A DNA stretch of 64,000 bases, taken from Minutocellus sp. GHC0000111 (taxonomy: Eukaryota). Positions 18,802-58,387 of this stretch are shown one piece after another. Location: NCBI GenBank assembly GCA_977018835.1, contig OZ361256.1, positions 434,001-498,000 of the forward strand, in the 5' to 3' direction. The notes under the pieces were generated by a model. It ran no database searches. It had not been told where the DNA came from and saw nothing but the letters and a program-made list of their open reading frames with translations. A program made the translations under genes and the position numbers. Each line of letters begins with the position of its first letter. Position 1 is the first letter of the stretch.

Positions 18802-20691
18802 CTAAATTCGTTGCTGGCTGTTATTGTGGTGGGTAAGTTCGGCGAGATTGACACTCGGCGTTCGCCGAATGCCCATGAGCAGGCCCGCTTTTGTCACCTC
18901 GGCCAAGGACTTGGCATCCGAGGCCAATCCATCTACACCGTGGCGACGTATCTTCTTGAACAAAAAGCTCAGACGCTCCATGGCAATCTCGAGAACTTCT
19001 GGAGTGACGCAAGCATAACAGAGGCGAAAGTGCCCTGGCTTTCTTTCGCTCATGGATTCACCTGGAGTAAGAACCACTCTTGCTGCCTGCTCAATTAATC
19101 TGGCCAGTCTCCGTTCGCCTTCCCAGCTCTGTTCTGGTAAAAGAGACGATAGATCTACATAGACCGAAATACCGGCAGCTGCATTGACGTACGGCACCAC
19201 CATTTCTTCCAGCTTTTGGACGCAAATGGCGTGGCTCCAAAGCAGTGTGGCTCGGCAATCATCGAGGAAACCATCCAAAAAGTTATCATCGGCCAATATC
19301 TCGGCCAGTATCATTTGCATCGGATGACTTAGCCCGCTGAAAATATTCAAATTCGCCAGGGCAGCCAACAACAACGTATTCTGCGAATACAGCACGCCAA
19401 CGCGGAACCCGCTGGCACCAAAATCCTTGCTGAGACCATACAGCAGATGGACGTCGTCGCCAAGCTCATTGTTGAGAATTCGGACCACGGATTCAAATCC
19501 AGTTTCCCTGGGTCTGTGCACAGAAAGTGCATAGATTTCGTCCACAATGGTGTGCACTCCCCTTCCGCGAGACCATTCCACCGCATTCGTTATTGTCGTG
19601 GGTCTGTAGACAACCCCGAGCGGGTCGTTTGGGTTGGTGATCAGCAATGCTCTGACTGATAGACCCTCCCGCTCGGCCTGCAGAGCAGCTGCCTCTAATT
19701 CCACCACCGTGGGACCAAGATGTGGATTGGCCATGTGCACCGGCCAAGGCACGGTGGCAGCCAGAGCCTGCAGATCGTTCTCGAACGAGGAGTAGTACGG
19801 CGCTGGAATCAAAATGACATCACTCGGTTGTGATAGAATGAATAGCACATGACTGAGGAGAGATGCAACTCCAGCTCCTAGAGCGCAGTGATCGGGGTCG
19901 ATCCTATCAGGATCTGGACCAGGCGATGATGGACGAGCCTGTGGGACAATTGTGTCGCTACTCCTGAAACCATCGTCATCACCATCCACCTCCTCTTGGC
20001 CATGTCTGCTTGTGTTGGACATTCTTGCGGTCGCATCCAGGTCATCATCATCACGCACAGATGATGTAAAGTCACTACTTGCAGCCCGCCGCCTTCTCCC
20101 CTCCGCAAAGAGAAATCGCCTTTCGAGCAGGTACGCTACAGCCTCGCGTGCCGCCGGGAGGCCCAGGAACCCATTGTACCCGTACACTATGGGATTGCGG
20201 AAGGCACCGACCGCTGTGTCGGAATTCATCAGACGGTTGGCCAGCATCTCCTGCACGAGCTTGTTCTCCGCCAGACAGAGGGCGATATGTCCCTCTGGGT
20301 TGTGCAGCGCGTCACAGGGATCCTGAAGGCAAGAGATGAACCCCGCCCAGTGGGCAGGCGTCGGCGGTAGGGCGGCTCGCTGGCCGCGTCTGCTGAGAGA
20401 TTGAAGGGCCGATGCCAGCGAATTGTTTGAACTGGCAGCAGCAGCAATGACATCTGCGACGGCGTCATCGATTATTGCCAAATTATCTTCGTCGTTATCA
20501 TCGGGCAGTGGGAGATATCGATGATTGTGGCGGTGATGGTTCGTGCTCGGCGTTCCGCCCTTTGCATCATGCATGTATCTTCGCCTCTTGCACCGCCGCC
20601 GGGCTAATCGGGTGTAGTAAATGCTGGTGACTGCAAAAATCCCGGCCGGCAGAGTAACAAGAGATCCGACATGTGAAAAAGATTTTACCAT
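18802..20691 (-). CDS. ACC-synthase-like PLP-dependent class I/II aminotransferase
   Basis: LCLAENKL, PAPYY, TNPNDPLG, VDEIYALS, YGLSKDFGASGFRVGVLYS (PLP lysine), PGHFRLCYA; N-terminal hydrophobic segment. Confidence 0.88.
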   Translation of the reverse strand: MVKSFSHVGSLVTLPAGIFAVTSIYYTRLARRRCKRRRYMHDAKGGTPSTNHHRHNHRYLPLPDDNDEDNLAIIDDAVADVIAAAASSNNSLASALQSLSRRGQRAALPPTPAHWAGFISCLQDPCDALHNPEGHIALCLAENKLVQEMLANRLMNSDTAVGAFRNPIVYGYNGFLGLPAAREAVAYLLERRFLFAEGRRRRAASSDFTSSVRDDDDLDATARMSNTSRHGQEEVDGDDDGFRSSDTIVPQARPSSPGPDPDRIDPDHCALGAGVASLLSHVLFILSQPSDVILIPAPYYSSFENDLQALAATVPWPVHMANPHLGPTVVELEAAALQAEREGLSVRALLITNPNDPLGVVYRPTTITNAVEWSRGRGVHTIVDEIYALSVHRPRETGFESVVRILNNELGDDVHLLYGLSKDFGASGFRVGVLYSQNTLLLAALANLNIFSGLSHPMQMILAEILADDNFLDGFLDDCRATLLWSHAICVQKLEEMVVPYVNAAAGISVYVDLSSLLPEQSWEGERRLARLIEQAARVVLTPGESMSERKPGHFRLCYACVTPEVLEIAMERLSFLFKKIRRHGVDGLASDAKSLAEVTKAGLLMGIRRTPSVNLAELTHHNNSQQRI

Positions 20692-20950
20692 GCTGCCTAT
20701 TCACTCTGAGCTTGATTCGATTCGATTCTACGATTCGATTCATTCGTTCAGGCGCGTCATGGTGATGTGCCCGTATCTTTTGGTTGGCGGCGCGCGCGGC
20801 GCCGGGGGGCGGGGGCGGCCGGGGGGCGGGGGCGGCCGGGGGGTCGGCTTCGCTGCTTCCTCGAATGGGGCCTTCCGATTCCTTGTGCCATCACTTTCGA
20901 ATTTCCCCGATACTTAAAACCAGATCGCTCAGCCTCTCACAGCAAGCAAG

Positions 20951-23519
20951 ATGAAGGTCAAGGTATCGGTGTATCACGGCCCGAGCGGCAGCGGCCGGAC
21001 GGACCAAGACGTTCCCTTCGTGCCCGGCGAGACGACGGTCGGCCAGGCCCTAGAGGAAGCCGCGTCCCGGCTGGCAGCCAGCGCCGCGAAAGAGGAAAGT
21101 TGGACCGATAAGAAAGAACCGCCGATGGTTCCAAATCTTCATCTCACTTCGTTGCCTTCTCAGGTTACCGCCGTGACGGACGAGTACATCGGGCAGGATT
21201 GGATCAAGAACCGCGTCCTATCGACCCACAAGAATCACTGGATGCCGAACCAGAACTATCTGCCGGGCTGCGAGTGCTACAACGGAATTCTGCGCTACCA
21301 CGTCGTTCCTGCGTTGGTCGGCTCCGACGAGGAGGACAGCAGCGATGATGATGATGATGATGACTCCGCTTCCAAACCCGCCAGCGGTAGCCGTGCGGAC
21401 GCCTCGCAGCGGAGCGCTGTGCTTACCAGCCCTCTGTACGAGTACCATACTCGGGAGGTATTGGAGGTGTCAGACCTGACCAGGATCAGTAGCATTCGGG
21501 TCCCAATCGATGCCAAGGGGAGCTTGCTACGTATGGACCTGTCTTGCACCGGCAAGATTGAGTCGGTCTTTAGAGAAAAGAAGGGAAGTAGCAGCATGAC
21601 GTCGATTGAGGACGTTGACATTGACCTGCCCGAGAACACGGGGCTTGGAGGTGCGACCATTGGCGATGTCAAGGCCATCGGTGAGTGATCTCTGCATATA
21701 GTTCTCTTTAGGAATATTTCCATCTCCTTTGCACCTCGATAATCCTTTCAAGTAGCCTCATCAATCACCATCCAACGTTACTCCCCCCCCCTGTAGTTGA
21801 ACAGGTGATTGATGTTGATGATCTGGACTTGGGGGATTCCGCGATCAACTTTTTATCGGCGAGTCTCCGCCAGTCGGTCACCATGGAGGACAACTGTTTC
21901 GAGCTACGTCATGTCGAGCTAGAAGGCCCTATTCTCGATGCTGATTTCTCTCCCAAGATCGTTACTAGGCTTGAGCTTCTTGCAGAGCAGGAGCGCCGAC
22001 GAGGTTCCAACGAGAAGGAATTCATTTTCGTCAAGACCTTGACAGGGAAGACCATTTCGCTCGAGTATTCCCTATTCTTTGACGTCAATAGGGTGAAGTT
22101 CATGATTTCTCTGATAGAAGGGATCCCCGTTGATCAACAACGCCTCGTCTTTGCCGGCAACCAGCTTCAAGATAGCCGCCTTCTATCCGAATACAACATC
22201 TCGGCCAAGAGCACTCTGCACCTCATCCTCCGCCTTCGAGGTGGTATGTACCAAGCAACTTCCGGTCGGTACGTACAAGCCTCTATGCTGCGTTCACTCT
22301 TTTTATCAAGTCGTGTTATACCTTCGCTAATTTTGATCTTTCAATTCTCTCTTTTGCTCATTCTTTTTACTATTTACGGGCAATACTTTAGTGAAGATTT
22401 CCTCGAGCATTTTGGTACAAAAGATCGCCAGATCGAACTGATCTTTGCCGATAACTCAACTGGGACCATAACTGTGAATACTACTACCAAGGTCAGGTCT
22501 ATCGAAAAGAGCGCACTGGCTCTTGTCAACGACAGTTGTGCTGATGATACCGATAACGAAGAAGCCATTCTGGATAAGAGAATCTTGAGCCTCAAGGCCG
22601 AAGTCGAAAAAGGCCGAACAGTCCAAGAAGGCCATTCTTTCCAAGAAATTTGATCGTGAGCAGGCCCTTGTAGAGATGCTTCGCCGTGAAGATGGGCTCC
22701 GCCGATCGCCCGAGTACCAAAAGGAGATGGAGGCCGCCGAGGAATCAGCCAACACGGAGTGGATGGACGTCGTTGCCAGAATCCAGGACCGTGTGGTTGC
22801 GGAGGCCAACGACGATGACAAGCCCGAGCCCATCTATACGGTTGAGGAGCTCCGTGAGGCGGCATCTCGTCATCCCGACATTGCCCATTGGGCCAAATTC
22901 AATCGAGCCCGTCAGGGAGACCTGAAGGAAGGCGACGAGGCCCCTGACGTTGCAATGCGCGACCTCGACGAGTCTGAAACGACCCTCCTGGAAGGGCCTC
23001 GGAAGAAGGCCAAGGTCGAGTCCAACGAGGATGGTGATGCCAAGGCCAAGTCGAAGCCTACCGTAGTCGCCGCTGGGTCCCTCTCGTGACCACCATTCCG
23101 CTACCTTGGGCCGGCACTGGCGGAGCTTGCATTGGCCAACAAGGGAGTGCCGGATTGGAAGTTTGTCTACATCTCCGAAGCTCATGCCCAGGATGAATGG
23201 CCGATCCGTTCAGGTCGGTTCAACCATGGACGTGGAGCTGTGATTGTAGAGAAACAGCCGAAGAAGGCAGCCAAGCGGTGCGAGTTCGCTCGAAAGTTTG
23301 TGGAAGATTTTATGCCCAAGGTCAAAGATGCCGGCGGCGATATATCGATGCTGGTGGATGATCCGGAGCTTGGGGATCCATTTGAGAAGCATTATGCGCC
23401 CTGGCCGCTGCGCCTCTCTCATTCGCGATGGGGTCGTGGAGTGGATTGCGCAGCCCAAGGATTGTTCGTACGATGAGGCCGTGGTGGAGCTTTGCGGTAT
23501 TCTTGGAATCTCGTCATAA
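20951..23519 (+). CDS. Ubiquitin-like domain plus iodothyronine-deiodinase-like (thioredoxin-fold) selenoprotein; introns 21681-21796 and 22269-22391; in-frame UGA at 23087-23089
   Basis: Ubiquitin [11 protein letters not shown]...[17 protein letters not shown]...[12 protein letters not shown]; deiodinase motifs [37 protein letters not shown]. Splice phases are compatible; two small indels (~22610, ~23415) are needed for continuity. Confidence 0.8.
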
Positions 23520-23568
23520 GTCGCTAGTCAGGTGGTGGTGATTGAAATGAGTGTGTTGAAGACTTACT

Positions 23569-23651
23569 AAGAGGTGTTTTACTACGTAATGATGGCGCGA
23601 GGGGAACTTTCCTTTGTTTTCACGTGCTTGAGATTGTAGTTGGTGCCTCTT
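23569..23651 (+). promoter_or_regulatory. Candidate SECIS element in the 3' UTR
   Basis: Helix I AAGAGGTG/TGCCTCTT and ACTAC/GTAGT; core ATGAT (23589-93) opposite TGAG (23629-32); ~11-bp helix II with G-U pairs; apical AAC at 23605-07. Begins 50 nt after the stop. Confidence 0.75.
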
Positions 23652-23748
23652 TTACTATGCCTTCGATTTGGGACGATAGCACCACAAAAGTAGTTCAACT
23701 CTATAATATAATGCTCTATGTGCAGCATAGCTATCGTCATTGAATCCT

Positions 23749-24748
23749 TTATACATCAGGAATTTGCACTTTCAAGACATGACGCCAAAGCAAAATACGA
23801 TTATCGTCTTCATCCCAAATCTCGTAGTCTTCATCCTGCCAGTGCCGAAAATCCTCGCCTAAATCGTCGGGAGTTTCTTCGTTGATAGCAACTAGAGTTT
23901 GTTGCTCCCTCTTCCCGTCCGGGGCAGCCTTTTCGCCAAGTTTAGCCAAGAGAAATGGTTCGGTGACGAATTCTGCTTCCAGCTTGTCTTCCTCCGTGAG
24001 ATGGTGAACGAGTTTATCGCGAAATTTAGAGTTCGCCACTAAGTCGTAGATAAAGGTTCCGTCGCTCATCCGCTTTCCTGATGAAACTACTCTAGCCCCA
24101 GGGACAGCATTGTTCTCCTGGATAAAGTTCTTGTTGCTGCTGCATTCATCGAACACAAAATATGTGGTTCGCTCTGGATTATTGGCAATGCATCTGACCA
24201 AGTAATTTCTGATCGTTATAATCCTTTTCGCTTCAACAGGATACAGCTTAGATCGCAGATAAACTGCAGCTGGACCGTCGCTGGGTACATTCATCGTATC
24301 CATCGCATCATCACCCTGGGGAAAGATTCCATAATACCTGAGAAAGTGGTCGGCGTCCTCGAGGTCCATTCCATGTGGGAGCAACATTTCGTCCTCATCC
24401 GAAGCAGCATTGGCATACGCCTTCTGAACAAATGGGACGAGATCTGGCGCACGATGGCAGCATTTATCCCATATGGAACGAATGTTTGGGGGGCATGCAT
24501 CCACCGAAACAGAAAACGGTGACACTGCGGTACCACGATCGGTGCTGTTCCCAACCCACCGCTCGGAGGACATGGCCGAGAGGTACGAGCTGGGCAGACT
24601 CTCGAGATGCTTCTTTGGGATGGTCAGCCGGAAGGAGGGCAATCCTTTGCCATCGGTGTTTGTGACGAGGAAATGCACGAGATCGCCATCGCCGCCTGCT
24701 GAAGCCGCTTGCGCCTGCAGCAGCGTCAACGCTCATTGTTTCCGTCAT
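23749..24748 (-). CDS. Hypothetical protein, possibly BTB/POZ-like N-terminus; start uncertain
   Basis: 326-aa ORF; LESLPSSYLSAM...FLRYYGI weakly BTB-like. Confidence 0.55.
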
Positions 24749-24910
24749 GGTTGAATGTTCCGCCGCGCCGGTGGAACGGTGGAAAATGGTGGGCCGGCCG
24801 GCCGGCCCGCCAAAAGAAACCCGGAAAAAGCGGGGACACGCATGATGTGTCATTTTTCCAGATACGCATACGCACGCCGCTCTCGAGGAACACACGCGCT
24901 TGTAGTAGCC

Positions 24911-25990
24911 ATGCACCGTCTCCGCCCCCTGTTGGGGCTCCTCTGCCTCCCCGCGGCCGTCTCCGCATTTGGCTCCTTCCAGCTGCCCAAGATGCCCTGG
25001 GACCAGCAGGGCGGTAATGCAGGCAACTCTCCCTTTGGCGGCCCCACTGCGCAGATGGGTGGTCTGCAGCCCGGTGATACCGTTGCTGTTGTGGGTGCCA
25101 GTGGCAACGTGGGCAAGCTCGTCGCCCTCCGTCTATCCGACACCTACAAGGTCAAGGGCATCGTCCGTGACCGTACCAGTGTGGAATCCTTCTTCGGCGA
25201 CCGGATGGGCGACGGCATTGAGCTGTACGAGGCCGATCTCCTCGAGGAGATGAAAGTAACGGAATCTGGATGTCCCGACGCCCTTCGACCAGCTCTGGCT
25301 GATGCCAACGCCATTGTCATTTGCACCGGCACCACGGCCTTGCCCACCAAGGCCTGGTCGCGCAACGAGGAGAAGGAGGTCACCTTGGACGTACTGTCGG
25401 CGCTGTGGGAATCCAAATTCGATGTCCCCGAGGCGATTGCCACCCTCACAAATGCTGGACTCAACACCCCGCAAAACGTTGACGACAAGGCCAACCTGTT
25501 CTTATATGAGGCATGGAACGATGCCTGCAAGGTATCGCAGAAGCGTGCCATCATGCTGAGCTCGATTGGTGTACAGCGTCGGGATCAGATGCCCTTTCCC
25601 ATACTGAACGCGTGTGGGGTTCTGGATGCCAAGGCCAGCGCGGAGGCCGCCTTGATCGATACAGCGGCAAAGAATGGATATGCCTACACGATTGTGCGAC
25701 CTGGACAGCTGTTTGGTGGACCATACGACAACAACTACTATCTGGGGACATTGTTTCAATTGGACAAAGATGCCGCCACGCAGGATGTGCAGGTTGGACT
25801 CGGCGATGAGCTGCTCGGTGATACATTGCGAAGTACGCTGGCGGAGGTAACGGCGCAGATCTGCGAGGGGGATTGTGCGTTGAATGTCGACTTTGCAGTG
25901 GTGAACGTCAAGGGCGAAGCTCCGAGTGTTGAGGGTATTCAAGAACGACTTGGGGCAATGAAGACGGAGCCGGCAGCGGTGGCTCAATAG
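24911..25990 (+). CDS. Plastid-targeted NAD(P)-binding Rossmann-fold protein (atypical SDR, Tic62/NmrA-like)
   Basis: Signal peptide ending VSA-F; VAVVGASGNVGK, IVICTGTTA, LSSIGV, YTIVRPGQLFGGPY. Confidence 0.85.
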   Translation: MHRLRPLLGLLCLPAAVSAFGSFQLPKMPWDQQGGNAGNSPFGGPTAQMGGLQPGDTVAVVGASGNVGKLVALRLSDTYKVKGIVRDRTSVESFFGDRMGDGIELYEADLLEEMKVTESGCPDALRPALADANAIVICTGTTALPTKAWSRNEEKEVTLDVLSALWESKFDVPEAIATLTNAGLNTPQNVDDKANLFLYEAWNDACKVSQKRAIMLSSIGVQRRDQMPFPILNACGVLDAKASAEAALIDTAAKNGYAYTIVRPGQLFGGPYDNNYYLGTLFQLDKDAATQDVQVGLGDELLGDTLRSTLAEVTAQICEGDCALNVDFAVVNVKGEAPSVEGIQERLGAMKTEPAAVAQ

Positions 25991-42720: not shown

Positions 42721-43587
42721 CTAGTCGGACTTGTTGTTGGTGGCGGCGTAGCACGCGTCGATCTGCTTCTGGAACTCGACGGCGCTGGACTCCCTCTCAA
42801 GTCTCTCCCGGCGAAGGTCCTCGGAGCACTTGCGTGCCTCGGCGGCGGACCGCTTGTCGGCCAGGCGGGACTTCTCGCTCTCGGCCAGCTTGGTCTTGTA
42901 CGTTTCGACCTCGGCCTGGAGGAAGCGAAGCTCCTGGCTGAGGTTGGTCTCGGTGAGGATGCGGAGGGAGCGCTCGTGGGAGTAGAGGGTGGCCAGGCCC
43001 AAGGTGGAGAGAACGAGGAAGGAGAGGGTCACCAGGCGGGTGAGGATGATGGCCTTGCTCTTGGGAGGGGCGGTGGCGGAGGTATCGGCGGTCGCGGTGG
43101 CGGTGGCCTTGGGAGCTGGAGCGCCCACCCCGGCGGCCTCGTCGTCGTCGGAATCCTCGGGGGCAGGGGCGGCGGCCTCCTTCTTGTCCCCCTTCTTGGC
43201 CTTGCGCTTCTCTGCCCACTCCTTGGCACGTCGCTCGGCCTCGGCGCGCTTTTGGGCCTTGGTCTTCTTGGCGGCGGGAGAGGTGGCAGCGGTGGCAGCG
43301 CGGAAGGCGGCAGCTCCGGACTGACCTCCGCCGCCGGCAGGAGCAGGTGGGTCCGACGATGCGGCAGCACCTCCGCGGCCCGAGCCCCAGCGGAAGAAAC
43401 CGCCGACTCCGCCTCCATTGGCAGCTGGTGCGGGGGCCGGCGCGGCGGCGGCAGCGGCCGGAGGGGCGGCGACGTCCTCGGCCTCGACGGCAGAAGTCTT
43501 CTGGGCCTTGTTCGGCGTCGTGCTCTTGCCGTCCGTCTTGCGGGTGCGCTTCCGCCCGGGGGAGGGAGAGGTTACCTTGGCCACCAT
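42721..43587 (-). CDS. Hypothetical protein: basic/Ala-rich N-terminus, one TM helix, C-terminal coiled coil
   Basis: 288-aa ORF with strong GC3 codon bias. Confidence 0.75.
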   Translation of the reverse strand: MVAKVTSPSPGRKRTRKTDGKSTTPNKAQKTSAVEAEDVAAPPAAAAAAPAPAPAANGGGVGGFFRWGSGRGGAAASSDPPAPAGGGGQSGAAAFRAATAATSPAAKKTKAQKRAEAERRAKEWAEKRKAKKGDKKEAAAPAPEDSDDDEAAGVGAPAPKATATATADTSATAPPKSKAIILTRLVTLSFLVLSTLGLATLYSHERSLRILTETNLSQELRFLQAEVETYKTKLAESEKSRLADKRSAAEARKCSEDLRRERLERESSAVEFQKQIDACYAATNNKSD

Positions 43588-43781
43588 GGTTGCGGTACTG
43601 ATGAGATTTCAAGATGCAAAAAAATGACTTTGCAACTTCTTGAGCTCGCGAGCCTACCGCGCCAAAATCCGTTGGTCGGGGAGGACAAAAAGATGATGAG
43701 TGAAGAATGCATCAGCTGCGTATCGTCGTATCGTCGCGTCACATGCTGCTGTACCAAGACCAACATTCTCCTACCAGCAGC

Positions 43782-54987: not shown

Positions 54988-55306
54988 GGTTGTATATCGC
55001 TGCTAAATGGGGCCCGACGAACAAAATGGCAATGCTCTATCGAACGAACGACGGAAAGACGAAATACTCATTTTTTCGTTCGAAGCTCTGCCCCGCTCAA
55101 GCTCTCTCCCGCAAACCGCCGCGTGGCATCAACCACCAGCACAAAGACCAAGTCATCAATTCCATCGATATCGGCGCATCGTATTGCGCAAAAGGGGAAA
55201 AGGTGGGAGCTCTTTCTCCGCCCTTCGGCCAAGGATCCGCTCTCGAAGTAAGTGCGACCAGGTGCAACGAGACCTCATTCTTGCTCAGCCCATTCCAAAT
55301 CCCAAC

Positions 55307-58300
55307 ATGGCGGCTGCATCCTCCAAGGCCGAGGACAAGGAGGACTCCTCATCCCCCAAGAAGCAGGCAAAGGAGACGACCAAAACAAAGATCAAATCGT
55401 CGTCGTCCTCCTCCTCGTCTTCCACCAAATCATCATCGTCGGATGGATTCCTCGAGTCCTACTTCGGTACCACCACCCTCCGCTTCGTCTACGCCAGCCT
55501 TTGGTCCATCGTCTCCCTCCAGATCTTCCTCAAAGTCGTCCACGAGGCCTACGACATCCGCCTCCACGCCATCAAGGAGTACGGGATGATCATCCACGAG
55601 TTCGACCCGTGGTTCAACTACCGCGCGACGGAGTACCTGTACGAGCACGGGTGGTATGCCTTCAAGACTTGGTTCGATTACAAGGTCTGGTATCCCCTCG
55701 GCCGGCCCGTCGGCACGACCATCTACCCCGGCATGCAGGTGAGCAGCGTCCTCATCAAGAAGGTGCTGGGTGATCGCATGTCCCTGAATGATGTTTGCTG
55801 CCTCGTCCCCGCCTGGTTCGGTGCCGTTGCCACAATATTCACCGGACTCATGGCCTACGAGGCATGCGTGGGAATCAAGCAGCAGCCCCGGCAGCAGCAA
55901 CAAAAGGGAGCTAAGGGACAGACTGCCAGCATAAAGCCCAAGCCATCCGATCCAGAGGTATTTAGTTCCATCCTGGCCACCGTCCCCGTCGTCAATATCT
56001 TGCACCGTCGTCTCGTCCTGCCGATTGCCGAACTGCTCGTACGGGTCATCACGTCCATGTTTGGTTCCGACCTGGGCCTGGTCGACGTCCCCCCACCCGG
56101 CACTCCTCCCACCCTGTCGTCTCCGTCGATCGAATCCTTCCTCTCGGCGGCGGCCATCATGGCCGTCGTACCGGCCCATCTCATGCGGTCCGTCGGGGGC
56201 GGGTACGACAACGAATCCGTCGCCATGACGTCCATGACCATGACGTTCTATCTGTGGATGAGGGCCCTGCGCGGCGGCAGGGACAATTCCCGCAGCGGGC
56301 TGATCTGGGGCATCCTCGCCGGTCTGGCCTACTTTTACATGGTCGCTGTTTGGGGCGGGTACATCTTTGTGATCAACATCATTGGCGTCCACGCCGGCGT
56401 TTTGGTCCTGCTGGGCAGGTACTCCACCAAGCTCCATCGGGCCTACACGGCATTTTACATCGTCGGTACGACTCTTGCCATCCAGGTCCCCGTGGTGGGA
56501 TGGACGCCGATCCGATCTTTGGAGCAGTTGGGGCCGATGGCGGTGTTTGTTGGCTTTCAGATGATTGAATACTGCGAAGTGATGAAGCGGAAGAACAATC
56601 TCAGTCGCAAGGACACATGGATCCTCCGCATCAAGGTGTTTGGCGCAGCTCTGTTGGTGGCCGTTGCCGTCGTGGCGGCGTTGGTTCCCACCGGGTACTT
56701 TGGTCCCATCAGTGCACGTGTCCGTGGATTGTTCGTCAAGCATACCAAGACGGGCAACCCCCTCGTGGACTCCGTGGCGGAACACCAGCCGGCATCGGCC
56801 GAGGCATACTTTCAGTACCTGCACGATGTGTGCTACATTGCCCCGATTGGATTTGTCATTGTCGCTCTCTTTTACTTCCATGATAGCAGTTCCTTCCTCT
56901 TGGTGTATGGCGTCGCGGCATATTTCTTCAGTCATCGGATGGTTCGTCTCATTCTTCTCACGGCGCCCATTGCCTCGGCTCTTGGTGGTATTGCCATGGG
57001 CAGCATCATTGGTTGGTGCCTTCGTGGCATCTCTCCGTACAGACCAAGCGTGTCGGATTTGTTCAAGGTTTTCTGGTCGGACGAGGAACCTGCTGCTGAT
57101 TCGAAGGACAAGACGAACACGTCCAGAAAGGGCGGCGACAAGGAGTCCTCCTCTTCGTCCCAGGACGGTCGAAGCTCCATGGTGCAGATTTCTCGCCTGG
57201 TTGTTGGCTACATGCTTTTGAACACGGCCCTTCCTTTCGGCGAAGAGTTTTATCACCGGTGCAGAGAAATGGCCAAACACATGTCGCACCCGACCATTGT
57301 CTACAAGGCCAATGGTCACATGGGAGAGGAAGTTTTGGTGGACGATTACCGCGAGGCGTACTGGTGGTGCCGAGACAACACGCCGGAGGATGCTCGCATC
57401 ATGGCTTGGTGGGACTATGGCTACCAAATCACTGGTATCGGCAACCGAACGACAATTGCGGATGGCAACACGTGGAACCACGAGCACATTGCTCTTCTTG
57501 GTAAGACCTTGACCAGCTCCGAGAAGGAGGGGCACCGCATTGCTCGTCATCTTGCCGATTACGTCTTGGTATGGGCTGGTGGAGGAGGCGACGACTTGGC
57601 CAAGAGTCCGCACTTGGCACGCATTGCCAACAGTGTCTACCGTGATCATTGTCCGAACGACCCCACCTGCCGAACCTTTGGCTTCTCCAACCAGGGCATG
57701 CCCACTCCTAAAATGGCCGGATCTCTCCTTTACAAGCTCCACAGCCACGATCTGGTCCCGGGTGTTCAGGTCGACAAGAATCGTTTCAAGGAAGTCTTCA
57801 AGAGCAAATATGGCAAGGTTCGCATCTTCAAGGTGTTGAGCGTGGCCAAGGATAGCAAGGAATGGGTCGCCGACCCGAAGAATCGCATCTGCGACGCTCC
57901 GGGAAGCTGGTTCTGCCGTGGCCAGTATCCACCGGCATTGAAGAAGGTTCTGGACCAGAAGCGAGACTTTGGTCAGCTCGAGGATTTCAACAAAAAGCAG
58001 GTCGACGAGGAATACCAAAAGCAGTACATGGAGCATTTGAACGATCCCAGCATAGCCAAGAAGGTGGCTAATCAGGGCGCGTCGTCCTTTGTTCGACCGC
58101 CGCAGGAGGAGGTTGACGAGCTTCAGAAGCGCGAAAACTGGCAAGATACTCCGTACACCAGCATTTTGTGGACCCTCATCAATGATAACAACATCCCCGA
58201 GCTGAAGGAATACCTCATTGCCAACCCACTCGTTGCGCACATGCGAAGTGCCGATGGCCGTGGGCCAATGTTTTGGGCACACGAGTATGGTCGGGAGAAG

Positions 58301-58387
58301 ATTGTCAAGATCCTCCGTAAGGTTGGCGTGAGCGAGAAGCTTCCTGACAAGGAGGGCCTAACCCCATTGGATGATAGCGAAATTTAA
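55307..58387 (+). CDS. STT3: Oligosaccharyltransferase catalytic subunit STT3 with C-terminal ankyrin-like extension
   Basis: IIHEFDPWFNYR, WYPLGRPVGTTIYPG, GGYDNE, SVAEHQP, WWDYGYQI, DGNTWNHEHI. Confidence 0.97.
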   Translation: MAAASSKAEDKEDSSSPKKQAKETTKTKIKSSSSSSSSSTKSSSSDGFLESYFGTTTLRFVYASLWSIVSLQIFLKVVHEAYDIRLHAIKEYGMIIHEFDPWFNYRATEYLYEHGWYAFKTWFDYKVWYPLGRPVGTTIYPGMQVSSVLIKKVLGDRMSLNDVCCLVPAWFGAVATIFTGLMAYEACVGIKQQPRQQQQKGAKGQTASIKPKPSDPEVFSSILATVPVVNILHRRLVLPIAELLVRVITSMFGSDLGLVDVPPPGTPPTLSSPSIESFLSAAAIMAVVPAHLMRSVGGGYDNESVAMTSMTMTFYLWMRALRGGRDNSRSGLIWGILAGLAYFYMVAVWGGYIFVINIIGVHAGVLVLLGRYSTKLHRAYTAFYIVGTTLAIQVPVVGWTPIRSLEQLGPMAVFVGFQMIEYCEVMKRKNNLSRKDTWILRIKVFGAALLVAVAVVAALVPTGYFGPISARVRGLFVKHTKTGNPLVDSVAEHQPASAEAYFQYLHDVCYIAPIGFVIVALFYFHDSSSFLLVYGVAAYFFSHRMVRLILLTAPIASALGGIAMGSIIGWCLRGISPYRPSVSDLFKVFWSDEEPAADSKDKTNTSRKGGDKESSSSSQDGRSSMVQISRLVVGYMLLNTALPFGEEFYHRCREMAKHMSHPTIVYKANGHMGEEVLVDDYREAYWWCRDNTPEDARIMAWWDYGYQITGIGNRTTIADGNTWNHEHIALLGKTLTSSEKEGHRIARHLADYVLVWAGGGGDDLAKSPHLARIANSVYRDHCPNDPTCRTFGFSNQGMPTPKMAGSLLYKLHSHDLVPGVQVDKNRFKEVFKSKYGKVRIFKVLSVAKDSKEWVADPKNRICDAPGSWFCRGQYPPALKKVLDQKRDFGQLEDFNKKQVDEEYQKQYMEHLNDPSIAKKVANQGASSFVRPPQEEVDELQKRENWQDTPYTSILWTLINDNNIPELKEYLIANPLVAHMRSADGRGPMFWAHEYGREKIVKILRKVGVSEKLPDKEGLTPLDDSEI

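What the first reader, a model, noticed from the sequence alone, without database searches (positions are those of the whole stretch)
20951..23651. Ubiquitin-domain/deiodinase-like fusion selenoprotein with UGA-Sec and SECIS
Seen: the ORF ending ...[11 protein letters not shown] at TGA 23087-89 continues in the same frame as PPFRYL...[15 protein letters not shown] hairpin with ATGA...AA...GA geometry lies 50-130 nt after the real stop. Established: iodothyronine deiodinases have FGS(C/A)T-U-PPF followed by YIxEAHxxDGW, and eukaryotic Sec insertion needs a 3' UTR SECIS. Inference: the TGA is Sec in an SxxU motif. With two phase-compatible introns and one extra A removed in the run at ~22610 (giving [30 protein letters not shown]), the domain is fused behind an uncharacterised N-terminal region and an internal ubiquitin-like domain ending LRLRGG, a possible DUB cleavage or turnover signal. 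Deiodinase-like selenoproteins are known from algae; I do not know this fusion. Ordinary gene callers would fragment it.
Basis: partly seen in the sequence, partly recalled or inferred. Interest (0 to 1): 0.8.

Follow-up and report, generated by a model that had tools for sequence, protein, structure and literature searches.

The report
Ubiquitin-fused deiodinase-like selenoprotein, frameshifted allele
A diatom gene joins a ubiquitin-like domain to a deiodinase-like enzyme domain whose in-frame TGA is likely read as selenocysteine, and the copy in this window carries two frameshifts that most other DNA and RNA data sets of the same gene lack.

Summary
Window 20951-23519 (+) is one three-exon gene of a diatom. 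RNA contigs from two or more studies splice out 21681-21796 and 22269-22391. It encodes a lineage-specific N-terminal region, a domain 65% identical to ubiquitin ending LRLRGG, a helical linker and a deiodinase-family (PF00837) thioredoxin-fold domain.

The in-frame TGA at 23087-89 sits at the catalytic S-x-x-U-P-P-F position. All 80 related metagenome loci have TGA there, and other homologues have Cys. A SECIS-shaped hairpin (AUGA 23589, AA 23605, GA 23630) lies 70 nt after the stop. It is supported by my own scanner and by a weak, sub-threshold Rfam SECIS_1 match. The same scanner finds such hairpins just after the stop in 22 of 30 homologous loci.

One A fewer at 22607 appears in 6 of 8 runs (a seventh shows both forms). 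An extra TA after 23416 appears in 5 of 6 covering runs, including every RNA run that covers it. The window therefore holds a doubly frameshifted, probably null allele of an otherwise intact, transcribed gene.

The ubiquitin-deiodinase fusion recurs in green algae and glomeromycote fungi. Four literature searches did not find it described. Cleavage at GG|M is predicted, not tested.

The parts
20951..21680 (+). Exon 1: ATG and lineage-specific N-terminal region (243 codons + 1 nt)
   Evidence: ORF and first ATG. RNA contig X6 record 23 runs 20908-21679 and joins to 21796. Only 10 relatives were found, all unnamed, 38-88% identical. There is no Pfam family above cutoff. The AF2 model is unusable, pLDDT 48.
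21681..21796 (+). Intron 1 (116 nt, GTGAGT..TGTAG)
   Evidence: Skipped in RNA contigs of X6 and X12. Boundaries.
21797..22268 (+). Exon 2
   Evidence: RNA contigs X6 record 23 and X12 record 12. Translation.
22024..22245 (+). Ubiquitin-like domain, IFVKTLTGK...[10 protein letters not shown]
   Evidence: Pfam PF00240, E 2.7e-17. Aligns end to end with ubiquitin residues 3-76, E about 1e-24; 48 of 74 identical by my count of the printed alignment.
22246..22268 (+). Conserved motif after [10 protein letters not shown] (last codon completed by base 22392)
   Evidence: RGG-M-[FYL]-[HQ]-x-[TS]-[SN]-[GA] is found in the window and 9 library homologues. RGGM is invariant in all 11 units seen. The stretch has low pLDDT in the AF2 model of P0142.
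22269..22391 (+). Intron 2 (123 nt, GTACGT..TTTAG)
   Evidence: Skipped in RNA contigs of X6, X12 and X7, X10.
22392..23519 (+). Exon 3 coding part: linker, helical region MLRRE..., deiodinase-like domain. In the window it is read in three frames because of two indels.
22607..22611 (+). A5 run: frameshift of the window allele (A4 elsewhere). As written, the frame stops at TGA 22651-53.
   Evidence: One A is left out at full depth in X1, X4, X6, X7, X10, X12. X3 shows both forms (74 of 170). X5 shows the window form. P0151 and P0002 are in frame.
22883..23516 (+). Deiodinase-family thioredoxin-fold domain
   Evidence: Pfam PF00837, 34.7 bits, cutoff 27. PDB by sequence: Dio2 9h48 E 3.1e-7, Dio3 4tr3 E 0.0024. 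The model of homologue P0142 matches 9h48 (TM 0.83 on the target) and 4tr3 (0.75).
23087..23089 (+). In-frame TGA, predicted Sec codon (residue 633 of the in-frame form)
   Evidence: TGA at this column in 80 of 80 related metagenome loci. Of 148 library homologues, 71 end exactly before it. Nine read W there by a Trp-reading code (inferred to be TGA; DNA not seen) and six have Cys. It is unchanged in all laid runs that cover it.
23177..23185 (+). E-A-H of the VYISEAH motif
   Evidence: Invariant E168, A169, H170 in alignment A2. Aligned to YIDEAH/YIEEAH of Dio2/Dio3.
23416..23417 (+). Site of the missing TA: second frameshift of the window allele, inside a Tyr codon
   Evidence: TA is put in behind 23416 in X3, X4, X7, X10 and X12. 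The window form appears in X1 record 7. Homologues have WP[IL]RFY here.
23517..23519 (+). TAA stop of the frame that carries [33 protein letters not shown]
23581..23640 (+). SECIS-like hairpin: helix I ACUACG/UGUAGU, AUGA 23589-92, helix II GGCGCG/CGUGCU, AA 23605-06, UGAG 23629-32
   Evidence: Fold. My scanner gives 1 of only 6 hits in 128 kb, and 30 of 1000 shuffles of the UTR give a hit. Rfam SECIS_1 is the only family matched in 23540-23680, at 12.7 bits, E 8.6 over 4227 families, below the gathering score of 35. RNA contigs cover 23478-23590 (X7) and 23536-23820 (X10).

Best explanation
This is one three-exon diatom gene (20951-23519, + strand) that encodes an N-terminal region, a ubiquitin-like domain ending LRLRGG and a deiodinase-family thioredoxin-fold domain, whose in-frame TGA at 23087-89 is likely decoded as selenocysteine with the help of a predicted SECIS hairpin at 23581-23640.

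Shown directly:
- the exon structure and the joined transcript contigs;
- both domains;
- conservation of TGA or Cys at the catalytic S-x-x-U-P-P-F position;
- recurrence of the ubiquitin + deiodinase-like architecture in other eukaryotes;
- the fact that the window's copy differs from most other data sets by one extra A (22607-11) and a missing TA (after 23416), each of which breaks the frame.

Inferred:
- The window's copy is a real, probably null allele in a heterozygous diploid. The intact form (776 codons, Sec at 633) is the one seen in RNA.
- The enzyme would work like deiodinases and peroxiredoxin-like selenoenzymes. Sec at the N-terminus of helix alpha-1 would attack a halogen or another oxidised substrate, with the conserved Glu/His of the EAH motif assisting, and a thiol would then regenerate it. 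The substrate is unknown.
- The ubiquitin-like unit is predicted to act as a natural ubiquitin fusion. Cellular deubiquitinases would cut after the invariant RGG and release the enzyme moiety, which would begin with the conserved M-[FY]-[HQ]-x-[TS]-S-G-R.
For: Transcript and frame:
- RNA contig X6 record 23 (1890 nt) covers 20908-23047 with both introns removed and the A4 form.
- X12 record 12, X7 record 18 and X10 record 1 run spliced through TGA 23087-89 to 23149.

Domains:
- Pfam ubiquitin and T4_deiodinase both score above cutoff.
- Homologues score T4_deiodinase at E 1e-16 to 1e-30.
- Dio2 and Dio3 are the best solved relatives by sequence, and by fold for homologue P0142.

Sec:
- 80 of 80 metagenome loci have TGA at the column, never TAA or TAG.
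- 71 of 148 library representatives end exactly before it and 47 begin after it. Nine read W and six read C.
- Between the two haplotypes, 10 of 18 variable codons downstream of the TGA are synonymous.

SECIS. The same scanner finds a hairpin within 350 nt after the stop in 22 of 30 homologous loci. That is 2.58 hits per kb against 0.20 per kb elsewhere.

Fusion:
- RGGM plus the downstream deiodinase-like domain occurs in P0002, P0004, P0047, P0061, P0063, P0065, P0073, P0081 and P0142.
- Named sources are Chlamydomonas sp. UWO 241, Edaphochlamys, Cetraspora, Ambispora and Acaulospora.

Allele:
- Two haplotypes occur at about 1:1 depth over 23120-23368 in X1, X3 and X4.
- A5 is seen again in X5 and X3. 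The no-TA form is seen again in X1.
Against: - The SECIS is below Rfam's gathering score (12.7 against 35 bits) and was invisible in a 5-kb search.
- My scanner was written after I had seen the hairpin. Several of the 22 positive loci are near-duplicates (L002/L003/L012, L007/L008, L041/L075, L037/L038). Eight loci with enough downstream sequence gave no hit.
- No genome is held, so Sec-tRNA, SBP2 and eEFSec could not be checked.
- All read evidence comes from assembled contigs, mostly of metatranscriptomes. Contigs cannot show strand, level or phase, and they drop minor variants. The phase of the two frameshifts and the heterozygosity are therefore inferred.
- No RNA run from a clonal culture was available.
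- The other haplotype leaves the window after 23507, so its 3'UTR and SECIS were not seen.
- The ubiquitin fusion is absent upstream of most related metagenome loci: only 2 of 30 with at least 1100 nt upstream carry the motif there.
- Nothing here tests cleavage or enzyme activity.
Confidence: 0.8

Rival explanations
1. The two frameshifts are errors or a mosaic of the assembly, and the organism carries only intact copies. The window would then simply misreport an ordinary functional gene.
For: All four RNA runs that cover 22607 show A4. All three RNA runs that cover 23416 show +TA. Another public assembly gives the in-frame text (P0151). Both sites are simple runs (A5, CTCTCTC), which are prone to indel errors.
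Against: A5 is also the only form in X5, and one of two forms in X3 (96 against 74 by depth). The no-TA form is the contig kept in X1 at depth 130.6, while X3 from the same sample keeps +TA. Short-read contigs would not be expected to repeat an assembler's error, unless these runs are the assembly's own reads. In that case the variants are still in the DNA.
Confidence: 0.2
2. TGA 23087-89 is a true stop. The protein ends at ...AAGSLS and the downstream deiodinase-like text is an untranslated relic.
For: Gene callers end there (P0001, P0002 and 71 of 148 homologues). The SECIS is sub-threshold in Rfam.
Against: The stop would cut the thioredoxin fold exactly at its catalytic residue. The downstream text keeps the family's invariant residues. 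The codon is TGA in 80 of 80 loci and Cys in other members. Changes between haplotypes downstream are biased towards synonymous.
Confidence: 0.03
3. The ubiquitin-like part and the deiodinase-like part are two neighbouring genes, and the A5 form with its stop at 22651-53 is the native state. The enzyme would start at ATG 22676 (MLRRE...), where stand-alone family members also start.
For: Stand-alone homologues begin at this very helix (P0009, P0033). In the window form an ATG follows the stop by 22 nt. Most related metagenome loci show no ubiquitin unit upstream.
Against: Contigs from four RNA runs cross 22600-22700 in the A4 form, in one open frame. The closest relative P0002 (86% identical) and eight more distant homologues are fused in frame. 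No contig break or alternative 5' end is seen there.
Confidence: 0.03
4. The A5 run is a programmed +1 ribosomal frameshift site.
For: A homopolymer lies at the frame junction.
Against: RNA and most DNA runs simply have one A fewer. Homologues are in frame without any run.
Confidence: 0.01

Closest known systems
Vertebrate iodothyronine deiodinases Dio1-3 (Pfam PF00837; structures 9h48, 4tr3)
   Same: The thioredoxin/peroxiredoxin-like fold. Sec in G-S-x-[ST]-U-P-P-F at the start of helix alpha-1. The [VI]Y-I-x-E-A-H-x-x-D-x-W motif. A UGA recoded through a 3'UTR SECIS.
   Different: Sequence identity is only about 23% in the fold match of homologue P0142. In place of the vertebrate N-terminal segment there is a conserved helical extension (MLRRE...) and, upstream of it, a ubiquitin-like domain. 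No thyroid hormones are known in diatoms (my own knowledge), so the substrate is unknown.
DI-like selenoproteins of protists, algae, early fungi and bacteria
   Same: A Sec-containing deiodinase homologue outside vertebrates. Such proteins are reported in Dictyostelium (PMC2375036, passages read), as the DIO family in algae with about 80% Sec forms (PMC7539508, passages read), and in Gonapodya (bioRxiv 10.1101/314781, passage read).
   Different: None of the passages I read mentions a ubiquitin domain. The algal paper lists other fusions (SELENOM-pVHL, SELENOM-ShKT, GST-MSRA) but not this one. Its supplement could not be read and its Fig. 4c domain matrix is not held, so the domain may be listed there.
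Natural ubiquitin fusion precursors (polyubiquitin, Ub-eL40, Ub-eS31)
   Same: A ubiquitin unit 65% identical to ubiquitin, with the intact LRLRGG tail followed directly by the partner protein. The best PDB sequence hits include Ub-eL40 fusion proteins.
   Different: The partner is a selenoenzyme rather than a ribosomal protein. In the diatom, the ubiquitin unit is internal, behind about 320 residues. K48 and K63 are replaced (N and A, read from the alignment). Processing is not shown.

Membership tests
Iodothyronine deiodinase family (Pfam PF00837) | Profile score above Pfam's gathering cutoff | tested here: met
   The window piece read with TGA=U scores 34.7 bits against a cutoff of 27, E 1.5e-8. 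It lacks the C-terminal 33 residues because of the frameshift. Homologues score 61-106 bits.
Iodothyronine deiodinase family (Pfam PF00837) | Sec or Cys in the G-S-x-[ST]-U/C-P-P-F active-site motif | tested here: met
   AAGSLS-TGA-PPFRY at 23069-23101. It aligns to GSATCPPF of Dio2 and GSCTCPPF of Dio3.
Iodothyronine deiodinase family (Pfam PF00837) | Y-I-x-E-A-H-x-x-D-x-W motif after strand beta-2 | tested here: met
   [17 protein letters not shown] and W are invariant in A2 and aligned to YIDEAHPSDGW.
Iodothyronine deiodinase family (Pfam PF00837) | Fold like the solved Dio catalytic cores | tested here: met
   Tested on homologue P0142 (Cetraspora; Cys form; 26% identical to the window piece), not on the window's own broken text. 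AF2 gives pLDDT 88.7. Foldseek's best hits are 9h48 (E 4.2e-13, TM 0.83 on the target) and 4tr3 (E 1.2e-11, TM 0.75).
Iodothyronine deiodinase family (Pfam PF00837) | Reductive dehalogenation of iodinated aromatics | not testable with these tools
   This needs an enzyme assay.
Eukaryotic selenoprotein | In-frame UGA aligned with Sec or Cys in homologues | tested here: met
   TGA in 80 of 80 loci. Cys in P0015, P0060, P0063, P0073, P0081 and P0142. W, which I infer to be a TGA read by another code, in nine others.
Eukaryotic selenoprotein | SECIS element in the 3'UTR | tested here: inconclusive
   Canonical geometry at 23581-23640. My scanner's chance estimates are 0.01-0.03. Rfam SECIS_1 scores 12.7 bits, below the gathering score of 35; it is the only family matched in 141 nt, E 8.6 over 4227 families. 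Rfam also misses 13 of 14 homologous loci that carry the TGA, so its silence weighs little.
Eukaryotic selenoprotein | Sec machinery in the genome (tRNA-Sec, SBP2, eEFSec, SPS, SecS) | not testable with these tools
   No whole genome is held for this window. Diatoms are reported to have 20-44 selenoprotein genes (PMC7539508, passage read).
Eukaryotic selenoprotein | Selenium in the protein | not testable with these tools
   This needs 75Se labelling or mass spectrometry.
Ubiquitin family (Pfam PF00240) / natural ubiquitin fusion | Ubiquitin fold profile above cutoff | tested here: met
   62.7 bits against a cutoff of 25.4. Aligned to ubiquitin residues 3-76.
Ubiquitin family (Pfam PF00240) / natural ubiquitin fusion | C-terminal LRLRGG followed directly by the partner | tested here: met
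   LRLRGG at 22228-22245, then M at 22246. RGGM is invariant in 11 of 11 units seen.
Ubiquitin family (Pfam PF00240) / natural ubiquitin fusion | Processing by deubiquitinases after GG | not testable with these tools
   Predicted only. The tail is disordered in the model of P0142 (pLDDT below 50 at residues 73-75).

The most novel reading that the evidence does not exclude
The gene is a natural ubiquitin-fusion precursor for a selenoenzyme, a third kind beside polyubiquitin and the ubiquitin-ribosomal-protein fusions. Deubiquitinases cut after the invariant RGG. This releases a ubiquitin-tailed N-terminal protein and a deiodinase-like selenoenzyme. The enzyme's new, strictly conserved N-terminus, Met-Phe/Tyr-His/Gln-x-Thr-Ser-Gly-Arg, acts as a Met-hydrophobic N-degron or docking motif. 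In this way enzyme level would be tied to the ubiquitin system. The arrangement has been kept in diatoms, chlorophyte algae and arbuscular mycorrhizal fungi.
Probability: 0.3. Interest if true: 0.7.

Novelty: new variant of a known kind. Interest (0 to 1): 0.5.

Why it matters
Deiodinase-like selenoproteins outside animals have no known substrate. A conserved fusion to a near-canonical ubiquitin, with an invariant RGG-M junction and a conserved motif behind it, gives a concrete and testable handle on how such an enzyme is made or turned over.

The fusion spans three distant eukaryotic groups, so it is either old or repeatedly selected.

Practically, the locus shows how standard gene callers break this family. 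They stop at the Sec TGA (71 of 148 library representatives) or build false introns around it. A reference haplotype can also carry a null allele that would be mistaken for the species' gene.

For diatom biology, the gene adds a candidate to iodine and halogen metabolism.

Tried and rejected
- **Rfam over 20000-25000.** No SECIS among 4 chance-level hits. This weighs little, because Rfam found a SECIS in only 1 of 14 homologous loci that carry the TGA.
- **Covariance model of homologous SECIS elements.** MAFFT could not align the 3' halves (A3, A4). A seed from one AT-rich clade (A7, which held a wrong row, and A8) was judged too narrow, so no model was built.
- **N-terminal region.** No longer relatives were found. 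Only 10 relatives of similar length were found. The AF2 model has pLDDT 48 and is unusable. The Pfam SH3-A_UBE2O match, E 0.013, is below cutoff.
- **Scanner hit at 43601 (+).** It overlaps the start of a minus-strand ORF and no plus-strand TGA-containing gene lies upstream, so I treat it as a false positive.
- **The other haplotype's 3' end.** It has no match in the window, so its SECIS is unseen.
- **Earlier findings of this scan.** None were on record.
- **Supplement of PMC7539508.** It could not be read.
- **Cover gaps in RNA contigs.** X6 lacks 23392-23416, and X7 has no cover beyond 23624. I take these as no evidence either way.
- **Programmed frameshifting at the A run.** Rejected, because RNA and most DNA runs simply have A4.
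Full report
**What is in the window**

The plus strand from 20951 to 23519 holds open frames that fit together only through two introns and two frame changes. Pfam finds a ubiquitin domain (E 2.7e-17, 62.7 bits, cutoff 25.4) in the middle piece. When TGA is read through, it finds an iodothyronine-deiodinase domain (PF00837, E 1.5e-8, 34.7 bits, cutoff 27) in the last piece. Exon 1 has no family above cutoff.

The window is from a diatom. Its STT3 gene (55007-58384) has only diatoms among its named best relatives, at 56-66% identity: Attheya, Chaetoceros, Amphora, Phaeodactylum, Thalassiosira, Cyclotella and Epithemia. No whole genome is held for it.

**Transcript structure**

One search for public runs gave 24 runs. 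Twenty hold at least part of the stretch and eight are recorded as RNA. I laid eight runs, all as assembled contigs.

- RNA contigs remove 21681-21796 (116 nt). This is seen in X6 and X12, which are from two studies.
- RNA contigs remove 22269-22391 (123 nt). This is seen in X6, X12, X7 and X10.
- Both introns are GT..AG, and the spliced frame is continuous...[22 protein letters not shown]....
- X6 record 23 (1890 nt) covers 20908-23047, that is, exon 1 through most of exon 3.
- X12 record 12, X7 record 18 and X10 record 1 run spliced through TGA 23087-89 to 23149.
- Contigs of X1, X3, X4 and X5 keep the introns, so I take these runs to be DNA. Their library type is not on record.

**The two frame changes**

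At the A run 22607-11:

- One A is missing at full depth in X1, X4, X6, X7, X10 and X12.
- X3 shows both forms (74 of 170 by depth).
- X5 shows only the window's A5.
- P0151 (another public assembly, same species by identity) and P0002 (86% identical relative) read the same way.

After 23416:

- A TA is present in X3, X4, X7, X10 and X12, and absent only in X1. X5 and X6 do not cover the place.
- With the TA the text reads [32 protein letters not shown], which matches the WP(I/L)RFY(I/V) of the family.
- The window lacks two bases of that Tyr codon.

X1 and X3 come from one sample yet keep opposite forms at 23416. Over 23120-23368 two haplotypes, 18 differences apart, lie at nearly equal depth: 87.8/91.9 in X1, 54.6/52.1 in X3 and 110/91.6 in X4.

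I therefore read the organism as a heterozygous diploid. The window would be a haplotype that carries both frameshifts, with the first ending the frame at TGA 22651-53 after 487 codons. Phase is inferred from the window alone, because contigs cannot phase sites 800 nt apart. The in-frame form would have 776 codons with Sec at 633.

**Selenocysteine**

A full HMMER search of 1.84 billion representatives gave 428 relatives at E <= 1e-3. Among the best 148 that are not the window's own:

| Behaviour at the Sec column | Count |
|---|---|
| End exactly at ...G-S-x-[ST], just before the column | 71 |
| Begin shortly after it | 47 |
| Read W there; I infer a TGA translated by a Trp-reading code (eight by regular expression plus P0047 by eye) | 9 |
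| Read Cys there (five plus P0060) | 6 |

One regular-expression match (R) was spurious. The rest are fragments or gene models that skip the site.

A scan of JGI metagenome contigs with the motif [FTI]VYI[LTS]EAH[AG] returned 107 relatives, of which 80 loci were kept. The codon at the Sec column is TGA in 80 of 80: 62 and the remaining 18. It is never TAA or TAG. These loci were selected by that motif, so they sample only part of the family.

TGA 23087-89 is unchanged in every laid run that covers it. Between the two haplotypes, 10 of 18 variable codons downstream of the TGA are synonymous. That is weak support for translation past it.

**SECIS**

The 3'UTR folds into a hairpin with these parts:

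- helix I: ACUACG/UGUAGU;
- an internal loop with AUGA (23589-92) opposite UGAG (23629-32);
- helix II: GGCGCG/CGUGCU;
- AA (23605-06), 12 nt after the quartet.

It starts 70 nt after the stop and 502 nt after the TGA.

A scanner I wrote for this geometry, after I had seen the hairpin, gave these results:

- It finds 6 hits on both strands of the 64-kb window, this one included.
- 30 of 1000 dinucleotide shuffles of the 229-nt UTR give a hit.
- In 30 homologous loci with at least 100 nt after their stop, it finds a hairpin within 350 nt in 22. That is 23 hits in 8,912 nt, or 2.58 per kb, against 26 hits in 127,494 nt, or 0.20 per kb, elsewhere on both strands.
- Several of these loci are near-duplicates, and eight gave nothing.

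Rfam results:

- Over 5 kb it lists no SECIS.
- Restricted to 23540-23680, its only match among 4227 families is SECIS_1 at 23581-23640 on the plus strand, across the full model length. The score is 12.7 bits (gathering score 35), with E 8.6 for all families. That corresponds to roughly 0.002 for this one family.
- It detects a SECIS in only 1 of 14 homologous loci, so its threshold is not a fair test for this family.

RNA contigs cover 23478-23590 (X7) and 23536-23820 (X10). The latter could also belong to the convergent neighbour, whose ORF ends at 23749.

**The fusion**

The ubiquitin-like unit (22024-22245) aligns with ubiquitin residues 3-76 at E about 1e-24. I count 48 of 74 identical residues. 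The LRLRGG tail is intact, but K48 and K63 are replaced.

The same order recurs in P0002, P0004 (twice), P0047, P0061, P0063, P0065, P0073, P0081 and P0142: ubiquitin unit, invariant RGG-M, the motif [FYL]-[HQ]-x-[TS]-[SN]-[GA], a linker, the helix MLRRE..LR.S, and then the deiodinase-like domain.

Named sources are Chlamydomonas sp. UWO 241, Edaphochlamys debaryana, Cetraspora pellucida, Ambispora gerdemannii and Acaulospora morrowiae. Their records are labelled hypothetical or 'Ubiquitin-like domain-containing protein'.

Many family members are not fused. Only 2 of 30 metagenome loci with at least 1100 nt upstream carry the motif upstream, and stand-alone proteins begin at the MLRRE helix.

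An AF2 model of P0142 with a 150-row alignment has pLDDT 88.7 and pTM 0.78. The RGG tail and the following motif have low confidence. Its best solved fold matches are mouse Dio2 (9h48, E 4.2e-13, TM 0.83 on the target) and Dio3 (4tr3, TM 0.75), followed by ubiquitin. By sequence, the window's own piece also finds Dio2 (E 3.1e-7) and Dio3 (E 0.0024) first.

**Mechanism**

Shown: the active-site motif, the EAH motif and the fold are those of deiodinases.

Inferred:

- Sec at the start of helix alpha-1 would attack a halogen, or another oxidised atom, on a substrate.
- A thiol would then reduce it, as in deiodinases and peroxiredoxins.

The substrate is unknown.

The strictly kept RGG-M junction behind a near-canonical ubiquitin predicts cleavage by deubiquitinases, as in polyubiquitin and the ubiquitin-ribosomal-protein fusions. 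That comparison is established knowledge about those precursors. Cleavage was not tested for this protein.

**Literature**

- Four full-text searches found no paper that links a deiodinase-like selenoprotein with a ubiquitin domain.
- Passages of PMC2375036 describe a Sec deiodinase homologue in Dictyostelium.
- Passages of PMC7539508 list DIO among algal selenoprotein families, give 20-44 selenoprotein genes in diatoms, and name other domain fusions but not this one. Its supplement could not be read and its figures are not held.
- A passage of bioRxiv 10.1101/314781 names a DI-like selenoprotein in the fungus Gonapodya.

**Verdict**

- Known kind: a deiodinase-like selenoprotein.
- Apparently undescribed, though widespread: the ubiquitin fusion with its conserved junction.
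- New to this locus: the finding that the window's copy is a doubly frameshifted allele.

Noticed in passing
window 21398-21399: In-frame indel polymorphism in exon 1. The window lacks about 25 codons (...VSSGTGITSGCQLRMVRDWSFGKMM...) that P0154 from another public assembly has and that all other relatives keep in part. X5 has a loose end at 21399 that encodes ...RDWSFGKMM. Short-read contigs of X1, X5 and X12 break at this place, but RNA contig X6 record 23 crosses it in the window's form.
   Followed up: partly
window 23507-23519 and beyond: A second haplotype leaves the window's sequence after 23507 in X1, X3, X4, X7 and X10. By my reading of the 30-letter loose end, it would end ...CGILGVSIGDD* instead of ...CGILGISS*. 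Its 3'UTR, and therefore its SECIS, could not be read. The 30 letters have no match in the window.
   Followed up: partly
window 20790-20850: A G+C-rich direct repeat (GGGGGGCGGGGGCGGCC twice) lies about 100 nt upstream of the ATG. Contigs of several runs break or diverge here, with loose ends at 20806, 20836 and 20838.
   Followed up: no
window 43585-43667 (+): The best-scoring other hit of my SECIS scanner (AUGA 43601, -22.7 kcal/mol). It overlaps the start of a minus-strand ORF (42721-43653) and has no plus-strand TGA-containing gene upstream. It is probably a false positive.
   Followed up: partly
loci L037, L038, L043, L048, L051-L055, L059-L063, L065, L067-L069, L071-L074, L076-L078, L080: A tight group of soil and peat metagenome loci with FGSYT-TGA-PPFRREVPA...IVYILEAHASDVWQ. 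They match only the catalytic domain (query residues about 78-247), and some lie on contigs of 50-140 kb. They look like bacterial-type deiodinase-like selenoproteins. Only L037 and L038 gave a eukaryote-type SECIS scanner hit after the stop.
   Followed up: no
P0004; loci L023 (4117) and L046 (2818): The Chlamydomonas sp. UWO 241 protein holds two tandem ubiquitin + deiodinase-like units in one gene model, and both skip the Sec site. In L023 and L046 the RGGM[YF]HETSG motif lies downstream of the deiodinase-like ORF, as if units were arranged in tandem.
   Followed up: no
window 22651-22678: In the window's A5 form the upstream frame stops at TGA 22651-53. The next ATG in the enzyme's frame (22676) is exactly where stand-alone family members begin (MLRRE...). 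Reinitiation there is conceivable but untested, and the second frameshift would still truncate the domain.
   Followed up: no
window 23749-24732 (-): A convergent neighbouring ORF of 327 codons has no Pfam family. Its 3' end faces the selenoprotein gene's 3'UTR, so unstranded RNA cover of the SECIS region cannot be assigned to either gene.
   Followed up: no
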